Below are positions 1,312 to 7,092 of a stretch of DNA of 7,092 nucleotides, piece by piece. Positions within the stretch are counted from its first letter, which is position 1, and each line of letters starts with the position of its first letter. Both the position numbers and the translations under genes were made by a program. Below the pieces are notes generated by a model. The model ran no database searches. It saw only the letters and a program-made list of their open reading frames with translations, and was not told the origin of the DNA. The DNA is from Octopus sinensis (lineage: Eukaryota): positions 1 through 7,092 of the forward strand of contig NW_021829051.1 in assembly GCF_006345805.1 (NCBI RefSeq), in the 5' to 3' direction.

Positions 1312-1738
1312 GGCGCAGTAGTGGCTGTGTGGTAAGTAGCTTGTTTACCAGCCACATGGTTCCGGGTTCAGTCCCACTGCGTGGCACCTTGGGCAAGTGT
1401 CTTCTACTATAGCCCCAGGTTGACCAAAGCCTTGTGAGTGGATTTGGTAAGCAGAAAATGAAAGAAGCCCGTCGTATATATGTATATATATATATATGTG
1501 TGTGTGGTGTGTGTGATGTGTGTGTGTGTGTGTGTGTGTGTGTTTGTTTGTGTGTCTGTGTTTGTCACCCTAACATTGCTTGACAACCGATGCTGGTGTG
1601 TTTGTGTCCCCGTCACTTAGCGGTTCGGCAAAAGAAACCGATAGAATAAGTACTGGGCTTATTAAAGGCGGTGCTCCAGCATGGCCGCAGTCAAAATGAC
1701 TGAAACAAGTAAAAGAGTAAGAGAGAGTAAAGAGTATA
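1312..1738 (+). mobile_element. tRNA-derived SINE, family B (CORE-like), near full length with internal microsatellite
   Basis: A box TGGCTGTGTGG (1322-1332), B box GGTTCAGTCCC (1365-1375), CORE-like GGCACCTTGGGCAAGTG (~1383-1399), internal (TA)/(TG)n at 1475-1562, 3' end GGTGCTCCAGCATGGCCGCAGTC...TGACTGAAACAAGTAAAAG and a (GAGTAA)-like tail. Three more copies are in the window. Confidence 0.9.
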
Positions 1739-4512: not shown

Positions 4513-4906
4513 GGATGTGCGGATGTGTGGTAAGAAGCTTTCTTCCTTACCAAATGGCTCCAGGTTCAGTCCTACTGCGTGTCACTTTGGGTAAATGCTT
4601 TCTGCTGTAGCCGCAGACAAACCAATGTGGTTGGATTTGGTTTACGGAAAACTGAAAGCAGCCCATGTGTGTGTGTGTGTGTGTGTGTGTGGTGTGTTTT
4701 AGTCTTCAACCACTGCATGACAACCGGCCGGTGTTGGTTTGTTTACGATACTGTAGCTCAGCGGTTTAGCAAAAGAGACTGACAGAATAAATACCAGTGT
4801 TACAAAAAGAAAATGGTACTGGATCGACATATTCAACTGAAAGATTCTTCAAAGTGGTGCTCCAGCATGACCACATTCAAATGACTAAAATAAGTAAAAG
4901 ATAAAA
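4513..4906 (+). mobile_element. SINE family B, diverged full-length copy
   Basis: GGATGTGTGGTAAGAAGCTT...CAGGTTCAGTCCTACTGCGTGTCACTTTGGGTAAATG, internal (TG)n, and 3' GGTGCTCCAGCATGACCACA...ATGACTAAAATAAGTAAAAG. Colinear with 1312-1738. Confidence 0.88.
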
Positions 4907-5826: not shown

Positions 5827-6050
5827 TTTATTTGTTTCAGTCATTAGAATGCGGCCATGCTGGAGCACCTCCTTCAAGAAGAATTTTAGTCGGACAAATC
5901 AGTCCCAAGTACTTATTTTTATTAAAGCCTGGTACTTATTCTATTGATTTATTTTATCGAACCGCTAAGTTATGGGTGAATAACCACACCGACACCGGTT
6001 GTTAACGTTCGTGGAGAACAGAGACGTAAACAGACATATGTATATATATG
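5827..6050 (-). mobile_element. SINE family B, 3' half
   Basis: TTTGTTTCAGTCATT...GCGGCCATGCTGGAGCACC...GGTACTTATTCTAT...GAACCGCTAAGTTA...CACCGGTTG; colinear with 1988-2190. Confidence 0.87.
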
Positions 6051-6379: not shown

Positions 6380-6406
<27 letters not shown>

Positions 6407-6411
<5 letters not shown>

Positions 6412-6718
6412 TATAATATCGATATTTAAATATCGATCTTATCAAGTGGCCAGCATAGGAATAAATACCATACAAAGGTAATAATTATTTAAAACTATAA
6501 ATTAGGGTATCTGAGAGATACCACCATGCTGAAATAGCAGTCAAAATCCTGACCCTAAAGCGACATTAAATGTTCATATAGCGCTAGGAGAGAAGACAGA
6601 GAGACAAAATAAACTAGCAAAAAAGATTTTACTGGATAAATCAAGATCCTGGATTTCTGGCTTTGCATAAGAGAAGCTCTGCCTTCGTCAGTTGAATATA
6701 CCTGATAAGAACATAAAT
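6407..6718 (-). mobile_element. hammerhead-containing repeat unit (Penelope-like terminal repeat or non-LTR retrozyme), copy 1
   Basis: Contains the hammerhead at 6634-6702, several hairpins and a 20-bp palindrome. Its left 44 nt recur at 7049-7092. Flanked by (TA)n and (CA)n. Confidence 0.6.
6634..6702 (-). ncRNA. type I hammerhead ribozyme motif with minimal palindromic stem III
   Basis: Minus strand: GGUAUAUUCAA-CUGACGA-A-GGC-agagcuucucuuaugcaaa-GCC-A-GAAA-UCC-A-GGA-UC-UUGAUUUAUCC. Core CUGACGA (6691-6685), GAAA (6657-6654), stem III AUCC-a-GGAU, AUC triplet (predicted cut between 6645 and 6644), and stem I UCAA/UUGA plus an imperfect extension. Confidence 0.72.
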
Positions 6719-6830
6719 ACATACACACACACACACACACACACCACACAACAAACACACACATACATATATTATACATATATATATATTATATATATTA
6801 TATATATATATAGTATATATATATATATAT

Positions 6831-6878
<48 letters not shown>

Positions 6879-6892
6879 TATATTATATATAC
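6719..6892. repeat. (CA)n/(TA)n microsatellite
   Basis: Direct reading. Confidence 0.93.
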
Positions 6893-7048
6893 AGAACATA
6901 CGTTATACTCACATATACGAACGCTCATACATATAATATGCAAGTATGTACAAGACCAGCTTAAATTGCCCGCCTAACTGCTCCACGCGCGCGATATGGT
7001 CAAAATAAACATCGCAGTGAATACAATGAGGAAATGTATAAATTATAA

Positions 7049-7092
7049 ATAAGGATAATATCGATATTTAAATATCGATCTTATCAAGTGGC
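7049..7092. repeat. direct repeat of 6407-6450, running off the window edge (probable copy 2 of the unit)
   Basis: 43 of 44 nt are identical; 7055-7092 matches 6413-6450 exactly; offset 642 bp. Confidence 0.92.

What the first reader, a model, noticed from the sequence alone, without database searches (positions are those of the whole stretch)
6407..7092. Ribozyme-containing unit appears tandemly repeated (642-bp offset): retrozyme or Penelope pseudo-LTR array
Seen: 6407-6450 recurs at 7049-7092 with one mismatch, and the match is cut only by the window edge. Copy 1 stops at a (TA)n tract, while copy 2 is preceded by ~110 nt of further unique sequence (6940-7048). Established: tandem hammerhead units can be processed to unit-length, sometimes circular, RNAs, and Penelope-like elements form partial tandem terminal repeats. 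Inference: a second hammerhead should lie ~190-250 nt beyond the right edge, giving a dimer partner and a releasable ~640-nt RNA.
Basis: partly seen in the sequence, partly recalled or inferred. Interest (0 to 1): 0.72.

Follow-up and report, generated by a model that had tools for sequence, protein, structure and literature searches.

The report
Penelope-derived repeat with hammerhead-like motif
The repeated stretch is the end of a short non-coding jumping element, present in over a thousand copies, whose tail resembles the tail of a Penelope-like retrotransposon of the same genome and which is likely copied by that element's enzymes; it carries a hammerhead-like RNA fold that is predicted, not shown, to cut itself, so it is a new example of a known kind.

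Summary
The repeat is real: 6407-6450 recurs at 7049-7092 (43 of 44). The window is a whole contig, so nothing lies beyond 7092 and the predicted second ribozyme cannot be checked at this locus.

On the minus strand, 6381-7092 holds one unit of about 490 nt, swollen to 642 nt by a microsatellite at 6722-6871. It also holds the last 44 nt of an upstream unit. The family is dispersed, with at least 1,340 copies.

In 40 sampled copies the 3' end is fixed and the 5' end varies:
- 33 of 36 terminal copies abut (TA)n.
- 4 of 40 run on in tandem.
- At least 16 of 40 have an inverted truncated copy at the 5' end.

These are the published hallmarks of Penelope-like elements (PLEs). The unit's 3' part is homologous to the 3' UTR of an RT/GIY-YIG PLE in this genome, including a terminal hairpin and a type-I hammerhead-like motif (6632-6704, minus strand).

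The motif's helices are kept through compensatory changes, and it is predicted to pair as a double hammerhead. However, it lacks the G10.1-C11.1 pair, no Rfam model matches it, and cutting is untested. No genomic 5' end lies at the predicted cut.

Verdict: a non-autonomous PLE derivative in partial tandem. A circle-making retrozyme is not supported. Earlier notes of this scan list other hammerhead candidates in this genome, none on look-alike DNA.

The parts
6381..6408 (.). (TA)n tract abutting the element's 3' end; likely the insertion target
   Evidence: In the 40-copy sample, 33 of 36 terminal copies are followed by (TA)4 or more within 45 nt. 18 of the 28 copies examined before the script stopped also have (TA)n upstream.
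6407..6721 (-). 3' two-thirds of the full unit ('A', about sense positions 171-485), holding the hammerhead-like motif, an AU-rich internal site and the terminal hairpin
   Evidence: matches at 85-96% in many loci. The sense strand is inferred from the fixed 3' ends and variable 5' ends.
6413..6442 (-). 3'-terminal hairpin (perfect 20-nt palindrome at 6418-6437), followed by the short AU-rich end
   Evidence: the window copy folds at -8.4 kcal/mol (z -0.68, weakened). A copy of the other subfamily (L046) folds at -15.3 (z -3.84, 0 of 200 shuffles). A hairpin with the same flanks but a different interior lies at the 3' end of the PLE family.
6476..6500 (-). Internal AU-rich site (about A80, window ~6486) where inverted 5' copies and some arrays end; resembles the 3' end
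   Evidence: 10 of 16 inverted pieces have their outer end at sense 396-406. The homologous site is used in the PLE family: 9 of 17 partial matches end at query position 236.
6632..6704 (-). Type-I hammerhead-like motif: CUGACGA 6691-6685, GAAA 6657-6654, helix III AUC-CAG-GAU, C17 at 6645, predicted cut between 6645 and 6644
   Evidence: This copy keeps the core but has 3 of 20 pairs broken, and its minimum-energy fold lacks helix I.
6722..6871 (.). (CA)n/(TA)n microsatellite expanded inside the unit, at the place of a short (TA)n in other copies
   Evidence: in L011, L012 and L014, A315 joins B1 directly. One search prints the unit sequence with its internal (TA)6.
6872..7048 (-). 5' third of the full unit ('B', about sense positions 1-170)
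   Evidence: 82-90% matches in 15 other loci, always next to A in the same order.
7049..7092 (-). Last 44 nt (3' end with hairpin) of an upstream, presumably 5'-truncated, copy: the partial tandem (pseudo-LTR-like), cut by the contig end
   Evidence: One search finds an exact match of the 43-mer at 7049-7091.

Best explanation
Window 6381-7092 holds, on the minus strand, one full unit of about 490 nt and the last 44 nt of a second, upstream unit of a non-coding dispersed repeat (at least 1,340 copies). The repeat's tail is homologous to the 3' untranslated end of an RT/GIY-YIG Penelope-like element (PLE) of the same genome. It was likely inserted into a (TA)n tract by such an element's enzymes as a partial tandem, the arrangement called a pseudo-LTR.

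Shown:
- The repeat and the family.
- Fixed 3' ends fused to (TA)n, scattered 5' ends, tandem junctions and inverted 5' copies.
- Homology to a PLE tail, including a terminal hairpin.
- A type-I hammerhead-like fold whose helices are kept by compensatory changes.

Inferred mechanism:
1. A PLE endonuclease nicks (TA)n.
2. The freed DNA end anneals to the AU-rich 3' end of the element's RNA (minus-strand sense), or to a look-alike internal AU-rich site.
3. The PLE reverse transcriptase, probably recognising the 3' hairpin, copies the RNA and usually stops early.
4. Running on into a second template or a tandem transcript gives the extra partial unit.
5. Priming from the other target strand gives the inverted copy.

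The hammerhead-like motif would, as in other PLEs, cut transcripts only when two copies pair through their near-palindromic helix III. Whether it still cuts in this family is open. The copy in the window is worn.
For: 1. Family and strand.
- 209 matches to 6407-7092.
- 221 matches (1 mismatch or fewer) to a 3'-end 43-mer, 0 in the reversed control.
- 1,340 exact matches to a 3'-end 18-mer, 0 in the control.

2. Anatomy in 40 copies sampled by that 43-mer.
- 33 of 36 terminal copies run into (TA)4 or more.
- 4 of 40 continue into a next unit.
- 5' starts are scattered from 1 to 440.
- At least 16 of 40 have an inverted piece abutting the 5' end.
- Craig et al. 2021 (PMC8557442, passages read) list these as PLE hallmarks: 5' truncation, partial tandems forming pLTRs, an inverted 5'-truncated copy, and (TA)n as a preferred target.

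3. Autonomous relative: locus L083.
- Local alignment of the unit to its 3' UTR scores 81 and 78, against shuffle means of 40 and 43 (sd about 6, maxima 64 and 66 of 200).
- 12 of 12 further copies of that PLE tail end 'GCTGGCCA-TTGATAA-hairpin-TTATCCT...' directly on (TA)n. Our unit ends 'GCTGGCCACTTGATAA-hairpin-TTATCCTTAT...' in the same way.

4. Hammerhead-like motif.
- A type-I descriptor hits the window only at 6691/6657/6645 on the minus strand, and 0 of 20,000 dinucleotide shuffles of the unit.
- 25 of 35 copies keep all core letters, and N7 alone varies freely (A14, C11, U9).
- 92.5% of cells are paired, against 14-49% when partners are slid. One pair switches G-C (21 copies) to A-U (12 copies).
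- RNAalifold recovers helices I and II by itself.
- A covariance model built from this family alone finds the L083 motif at 38.7 bits, E 7.5e-5.
- With L083 added, 10 of 21 pairs show changes on both sides, against 3.0 +/- 1.1 in shuffles (0 of 500).
- Two copies are predicted to form a double hammerhead: -40.4 against 2 x -16.8 kcal/mol.
- PLE hammerheads with a long helix II, a palindromic helix III and action as dimers are described in PMC4209133 (parts 1-2 of 4 read).
Against: - L083 is only a distant relative. The alignment covers about 340-385 nt and is rich in mismatches. No closer autonomous partner was found, and only 1 of 12 PLE loci fetched shows the motifs. Which element mobilises the family is therefore inferred.
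- No Rfam hammerhead model matches the window, three consensus-like copies, five older copies or L083, even at E 10.
- Per PMC4209133, the pair next to the core is highly conserved as G10.1-C11.1. Here it is A.A in 26 of 35 copies and C.A in 6 of 35, and A-U in the PLE.
- Six of 35 copies share U4 to C in the core. A subfamily therefore spread with a core change expected to cripple cutting (expectation recalled, not tested).
- 0 of 40 genomic 5' ends lie within 5 nt of the predicted cut, and many copies run through the motif. Cut RNA is not the usual template.
- The descriptor was written after seeing the motif. Alignment A2 is fitted to the model.
- Expression and cutting are untested.
Confidence: 0.8

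Rival explanations
1. A true metazoan retrozyme: tandem units are transcribed, cut at each hammerhead, ligated into circles of about 490 nt, and the circles are reverse-transcribed by rolling circle to give multi-unit insertions.
For: Tandem junctions exist. The motif has hammerhead architecture and is predicted to dimerise. Retrozymes are proposed to be PLE derivatives (PMC7229834 passages; preprint 10.64898/2026.07.22.740005, sections 14 and 16). Initiation at one AU-rich site on a circle could also give fixed 3' ends.
Against: Most copies are shorter than one unit. The longest array seen is 2.5 units (L011), against dimers to 62-mers in the paper. 0 of 40 5' ends lie at the cut. Only 2 of 10 junction loci hold two whole motifs. 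The core-adjacent pair is unpaired, and a subfamily carries U4 to C. No RNA data are available.
Confidence: 0.1
2. A SINE-like element copied by a LINE (for example RTE or CR1 type) with a microsatellite tail. On this view the PLE likeness is convergent or comes from an old chimera.
For: Fixed 3' ends, 5' truncation and 5' inversions also occur with LINE machinery (recalled). LINE fragments lie near some copies (L010, L017).
Against: (TA)n lies on both sides of copies, so it is a target and not a tail. Partial tandems and the same inverted-copy end point are shared with the PLE tail family. The alignment with a PLE 3' UTR is colinear, covering motif, hairpin and end.
Confidence: 0.05
3. Local duplication or assembly artefact: the second 44-nt copy at the contig end is a mis-join or a collapsed repeat, or the tandem arose by unequal crossing-over as in satellite DNA.
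For: C5522 is a 7.1-kb unplaced contig that ends inside the repeat. One sampled locus (L044) is a plain 740-bp local duplication.
Against: The same B-to-A junction lies inside chromosome-scale contigs at 10 other loci. The two copies differ at 1 of 44 positions. The junction matches the family's junction letter for letter.
Confidence: 0.05

Closest known systems
Minimal hammerheads in the pseudo-LTRs of Penelope-like elements (Cervera and De la Pena 2014, PMC4209133; parts 1-2 of 4 read)
   Same: Type-I layout, a long helix II, a short near-palindromic helix III that calls for a dimer, and a place in the repeated terminal region of a PLE. Motifs are spread through the genome mostly as single copies from truncated elements, and some pairs lie on opposite strands 100-700 bp apart.
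   Different: The paper stresses a conserved G10.1-C11.1 pair with one extra base on the 5' side. Here there is a base on each side: A-U in the PLE, A.A or C.A in this family. Helix I is long (6 bp, a 3x3 loop, then 3-4 bp), not 4-5 bp. The carrier is a 490-nt non-coding element, not a PLE.
Metazoan non-LTR retrozymes (Cervera and De la Pena 2020, PMC7229834, passages; Li et al. 2026 preprint 10.64898/2026.07.22.740005, abstract and sections 14 and 16)
   Same: A short, AT-rich, non-coding unit with a type-I hammerhead-like motif, found in tandem and related to a PLE terminal region. The preprint proposes exactly this origin for vertebrates.
   Different: Unit of about 490 nt against 150-450 nt. 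Arrays are at most 2.5 units, and most copies are 5'-truncated singles with a fixed 3' end. No circular RNA has been shown. The host is not a vertebrate, and the preprint says it did not examine other animals.
PLE insertion architecture (Craig et al. 2021, PMC8557442, passages)
   Same: 5' truncation, partial tandem forming a pLTR, an inverted 5'-truncated copy at the 5' end, a terminal piece present at one end only, and (TA)n as target.
   Different: Those features were described for coding PLEs (Naiad and others). The piece missing from the inverted copy here is about 90 nt, against the 30-40-bp 'tail'. The related PLE here has a C-terminal endonuclease, so it is not a Naiad.
LINE-SINE pairs that share a 3' stem-loop recognised by the reverse transcriptase (for example the eel UnaL2/UnaSINE1 pair; recalled, no paper read)
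   Same: A non-coding element shares with a coding retroelement a 3' hairpin whose flanks are kept and whose interior differs but stays self-complementary.
   Different: The partner is a PLE, not a LINE. Recognition of the hairpin is inferred only.

Membership tests
Hammerhead ribozyme, type I (PLE-type minimal variant) | Conserved core CUGANGA ... GAAA and a non-G base at the cut site | tested here: met
   Window, minus strand: 6691-6685, 6657-6654, C at 6645. 25 of 35 copies keep all of it, and N7 alone is free.
Hammerhead ribozyme, type I (PLE-type minimal variant) | Three helices around the core, kept by compensatory changes | tested here: met
   92.5% of cells paired, against 14-49% when slid. 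10 of 21 pairs have changes on both sides once the PLE relative is added, against 3.0 in shuffles; that alignment is fitted to the model. RNAalifold finds helices I and II.
Hammerhead ribozyme, type I (PLE-type minimal variant) | G10.1-C11.1 pair closing helix II next to the core (called highly conserved in PMC4209133) | tested here: not met
   The two bases are A and A in 26 of 35 copies and C and A in 6 of 35. They are A and U in the PLE family. The G-C pairs start one step further in.
Hammerhead ribozyme, type I (PLE-type minimal variant) | Palindromic helix III or loop 3 allowing a double hammerhead | tested here: met
   AUCCAGGAU is a palindrome but for the middle base. Cofolding gives an intermolecular helix III: -40.4 against 2 x -16.8 kcal/mol.
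Hammerhead ribozyme, type I (PLE-type minimal variant) | Match to a curated hammerhead covariance model (Rfam) | tested here: not met
   No hammerhead family at E up to 10, or up to 1. The same genome does hold RF00163 matches elsewhere: 8 over the cut-off among 74 scored.
Hammerhead ribozyme, type I (PLE-type minimal variant) | Self-cleavage | not testable with these tools
   Needs in vitro transcription of monomer and dimer constructs.
Penelope-like element (as a non-autonomous derivative) | ORF with PLE-type RT and GIY-YIG endonuclease | tested here: not met
   No ORF of 110 aa or more that is not microsatellite-like lies in the unit, so it is non-autonomous. [quoted passage not shown]
Penelope-like element (as a non-autonomous derivative) | 5' truncation, partial tandem (pLTR), and an inverted 5'-truncated copy | tested here: met
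   In 40 copies, starts run from 1 to 440, 4 are tandem, and at least 16 have an inverted piece. There are 11 junctions in 10 other loci.
Penelope-like element (as a non-autonomous derivative) | Insertion bias for microsatellites, (TA)n | tested here: met
   33 of 36 terminal copies. 12 of 12 copies of the PLE tail.
Penelope-like element (as a non-autonomous derivative) | Sequence homology to a PLE terminal region | tested here: met
   Alignment scores about 6-7 sd above shuffles. Covariance-model hit of 38.7 bits in both pLTR copies of L083. Shared end module.
Metazoan non-LTR retrozyme | Tandem arrays of the unit, from dimers to large multimers | tested here: inconclusive
   Only short arrays were seen, at most 2.5 units. 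4 of 40 sampled 3' ends are tandem. Among the first 100 listed 18-mer places there are 2 same-strand pairs 479-486 nt apart.
Metazoan non-LTR retrozyme | Expressed as unit-length linear and circular RNA | not testable with these tools
   The raw RNA runs offered gave 0-1 reads, even on an abundant SINE-like stretch, so they are no test.

The most novel reading that the evidence does not exclude
This animal's Penelope-like elements use a hammerhead variant that has given up the G10.1-C11.1 pair and escapes every curated model. The variant is held in shape by compensatory changes both in a coding PLE and in a 1,300-copy non-coding passenger. The passenger rides on a shared 3' hairpin-plus-AU-rich end that primes on (TA)n. 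That would make it the first defined 'LINE-SINE-like' pair for a PLE outside vertebrates, with a second, internal AU-rich priming site that explains the puzzling inverted copies of PLEs.
Probability: 0.35. Interest if true: 0.45.

Novelty: new member of a known kind. Interest (0 to 1): 0.3.

Why it matters
PLEs are the least understood retrotransposons. How their RT picks its template, and why insertions come as tandem and inverted pieces, is open; Craig et al. 2021 call for exactly such mechanistic study.

A small, abundant passenger shares only a hairpin, an AU-rich end and a hammerhead-like fold with a coding PLE. That narrows down which RNA features matter and gives compact constructs for testing them.

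It also extends to an invertebrate the recent proposal, made for vertebrates, that hammerhead-bearing tandem repeats are PLE passengers. For genome annotation, it explains a repeat family that would otherwise be filed as unknown or as satellite.

Tried and rejected
- Rfam scans of the window, of consensus-like and older copies, and of the PLE pLTR found no hammerhead family. They returned only microsatellite look-alikes of miRNA models.
- Sequencing runs: no RNA holder listed.
- Laying raw RNA runs X23 and X24 on a tandem copy gave 0 and 1 reads. Laying X21-X24 on the PLE tail plus a SINE-like stretch gave 0 reads. The organism may not be in these runs, so this is no test of expression.
- Contig-only runs X1 and X2 hold family pieces but cannot tell RNA from DNA.
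- ORF scan of the flanks of 17 loci found no PLE ORF next to copies.
- BLAST and motif scans of 36 hammerhead or GIY-YIG loci found only L083 related. The other hits were low-complexity.
- A third motif in L091 (27.4 bits) lacks a clear helix III and was not used.
- The idea that 6407-6721 and 6872-7092 are two separate insertions was dropped. The two pieces are contiguous in unit coordinates, and other copies join them directly.
- The script stopped after 28 of 40 copies, and only those are counted.
- Earlier notes of the scan: none near this place and none on look-alike sequence. Notes elsewhere in the genome concern other hammerhead candidates and were not used.
- Print search: no paper with 'hammerhead ribozyme' and 'octopus' describes such an element (listing). 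A 2026 octopus repeat annotation has no 'hammerhead' or 'retrozyme' (passages). That the host is an octopus is my recollection of its SINEs and was not tested.

Full report
**Observation.** The sequence and the repeat finder (family D13) show 6402-6450 and 7044-7092 agreeing at 47 of 49 positions. The window is the whole of contig C5522 of a 2.72-Gb assembly, so the match is cut by the end of the contig and no downstream sequence can be fetched.

**A dispersed family with a unit of about 490 nt.** The stretch 6407-7092 has 209 reported matches in the genome. Cutting it into A (6407-6721) and B (6872-7048) and laying both on 17 loci shows the recurrent order A-B-A. In several loci (L011, L012, L014) A315 joins B1 directly. 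The 150 nt at 6722-6871 are therefore a (CA)n/(TA)n expansion of a short internal (TA)n, and the true unit is about 490 nt, not 642. A 43-mer at the A1 end occurs 221 times with 1 mismatch or fewer. An 18-mer there occurs 1,340 times exactly, and the reversed controls give 0.

**Strand and ends.** I fetched 40 places from the 43-mer list, 20 of each of two subfamilies, and oriented them so that the 43-mer reads forward. That is the minus strand of the window. In these copies the right end is fixed at '...CCTTAT TTATAAATTTATATA' and runs straight into (TA)n. Of the 36 copies that end there, 33 are followed by (TA)4 or more within 45 nt, and the junction slides by a few AT letters from copy to copy. 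Four of 40 continue into a next unit.

The left ends are scattered, with starts at unit positions 1 to 440. At least 16 of 40 have an inverted piece of the same unit abutting the left end, and 10 of those 16 pieces have their outer end at positions 396-406. In the 28 copies that a later script examined before it stopped, 18 also have (TA)n on the left, and several of the rest show further inverted pieces that BLAST had missed.

A fixed 3' end, 5' truncation, partial tandems, inverted 5' copies and (TA)n on both sides describe retrotransposition into (TA)n. They match point for point what Craig et al. 2021 list for Penelope-like elements (PMC8557442, passages).

In the window this reads as follows:
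- (TA)n target at 6381-6408.
- A full unit at 6407-7048, with its swollen microsatellite.
- The last 44 nt of an upstream copy at 7049-7092.

**A coding relative.** No ORF lies in or next to the copies. A search of the genome with the GIY-YIG family gave 147 matches among 150 scored of 5,029 candidates. Of 12 such loci fetched at 10 kb, one, L083, shares sequence with the unit. [quoted passage not shown]

A local alignment of the unit with the last 700 nt before the PLE's end is colinear over about 340-385 nt. It scores 81 (young subfamily) and 78 (old subfamily), against 40 and 43 for shuffles (sd about 6, maxima 64 and 66 of 200). Two blocks stand out.

*The end module.* The PLE tail reads 'ATGCTGGCCA-TTGATAA-[hairpin]-TTATCCTACATTAGATGTA' followed by (TA)n in 12 of 12 further copies. 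The unit reads 'ATGCTGGCCACTTGATAA-[hairpin]-TTATCCTTATTTATAAATTTATA' followed by (TA)n. The outer five pairs of the hairpin are the same in both. The inside differs entirely but stays self-complementary: -15.3 kcal/mol, z -3.84 for L046, and -9.7, z -2.2 for L083. This is what one expects of a structure that the reverse transcriptase reads. That reading is inference.

*The hammerhead-like motif.* This is treated next.

The PLE tail family also shows inverted partial copies whose outer end sits at the homologous AU-rich site: 9 of 17 partial matches end at query position 236.

**The hammerhead-like motif.** On the minus strand, 6704-6632 reads:
- helix I (4 bp, a 3x3 loop, 6 bp)
- CUGACGA
- A
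- helix II (GGC / GCC, an internal loop, GCUUC / GAAGC)
- A
- GAAA
- AUC-CAG-GAU
- C (6645)
- the return strand of helix I

A descriptor for a type-I hammerhead, allowing one extra base on either side of helix II, finds this site alone in the window. It finds nothing in 20,000 dinucleotide shuffles of the unit. The descriptor was written after I had seen the motif.

Across 35 copies (alignment A1):
- 25 keep every core letter.
- The one core position that hammerheads leave free, N7, is the one that varies (A14, C11, U9).
- 92.5% of pair cells are standard pairs, against 14-49% when the partners are slid.
- One helix I pair switches between G-C (21 copies) and A-U (12), with 2 intermediates.
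- RNAalifold, given no hint, returns helices I and II.

A covariance model built from this family alone finds the motif in both pLTR copies of L083 at 38.7 bits (E 7.5e-5 over 385 kb searched). With L083 and two diverged copies aligned in, 10 of 21 pairs carry changes on both sides, against 3.0 +/- 1.1 in shuffles and 1-4 in slid controls. That alignment is fitted to the model, so it leans towards the structure.

Two consensus-like copies are predicted to fold into a double hammerhead with an intermolecular helix III: -40.4 against 2 x -16.8 kcal/mol. The PLE copy gives -49.1 against 2 x -20.3. Cervera and De la Pena 2014 describe PLE hammerheads in just these terms: a long helix II, a palindromic helix III, action as dimers, low activity in vitro, spread mostly as single motifs, and sometimes on opposite strands 100-700 bp apart (PMC4209133, parts 1-2).

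**Against a working ribozyme.**
- No Rfam hammerhead model matches any copy or the PLE, even at E 10. The genome has ordinary RF00163 matches elsewhere.
- The pair next to the core, stressed in the 2014 paper as G10.1-C11.1, is A.A or C.A here and A-U in the PLE.
- Six of 35 copies share U4 to C.
- None of 40 genomic 5' ends lies within 5 nt of the predicted cut, and many copies run through the motif.
- The window's own copy keeps the core but has three broken pairs, and its minimum-energy fold lacks helix I.

Structure has clearly been conserved between the families. Catalysis is predicted only.

Whether a second motif lies beyond 7092 cannot be checked. In other loci the upstream partial copy reaches far enough (A296 or beyond) at 3 of 11 junctions, in 2 of 10 loci. 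Those loci were picked as best matches to a query that contained the junction, so they are not an unbiased sample. The retrozyme picture of long arrays and circles has no support here, but RNA could not be tested: the runs offered gave 0-1 reads even on an abundant SINE-like stretch.

**Comparison and novelty.** PLE derivatives with hammerheads are in print: PMC4209133, PMC7229834 (passages), and the 2026 preprint 10.64898/2026.07.22.740005. That preprint shows for Xenopus that retrozymes match PLE termini, and says other animals were not examined. My searches found no description of such an element in octopus or other cephalopods. That the host is an octopus is my recollection of its SINEs and was not tested.

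This is therefore a new member of a known kind. Three details are worth a specialist's glance: the unpaired bases next to the core, the shared 3' hairpin with a swapped interior, and the fixed internal AU-rich end of the inverted copies.

Noticed in passing
window ~6476-6500 (unit position ~406); L083 ~7001-7025: Inverted 5' copies do not end at the element's true 3' end. They end about 90 nt short of it, at an internal AU-rich site that resembles the 3' end. The homologous site is used in the coding PLE's tail family (10 of 16 and 9 of 17 cases). This suggests a second priming site on (TA)n.
   Followed up: partly
L083:7110-7391 and 1175-1453: In this PLE copy a SINE-like stretch of about 280 nt sits between the usual 3' end (hairpin plus CCTACATTAGATGTA) and the flanking (TA)n. 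It is carried in both tandem pLTR copies. 12 of 12 other copies of the tail lack it.
   Followed up: partly
L091:9322-9443 (+) and 9700-9800: A third, more distant hammerhead-like motif (27.4 bits with my model) also has A...A flanking helix II. It lies about 300-400 nt upstream of an end fused to (TA)n, with an inverted twin across the microsatellite. Helix III is unclear.
   Followed up: partly
L044:1646-2981: A 740-bp local tandem duplication holds a 70-nt 3' fragment of the element followed by 61 nt of the start of a next unit, and then an unrelated long hairpin-forming sequence.
   Followed up: no
window 1323-1427 and 4521-4625; 1565-1661 against 2072-2168; 1989-2153 and 5827-6005: Several copies and inverted pairs of SINE-like repeats (76-88% alike) and long microsatellites fill the rest of the contig. 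No ORF other than microsatellite read-through was seen.
   Followed up: no
genome-wide, e.g. G000:C13:29988995-29989039: The genome holds ordinary type-I hammerheads by Rfam RF00163 (best 48.2 bits; 8 over the cut-off among 74 scored of about 266,000 candidates). None lies in this family.
   Followed up: no
L017:5406-6999 and L010:366-877: LINE-like ORF fragments (endonuclease/RT-like by eye) lie near two copies. They are unrelated to the element.
   Followed up: no
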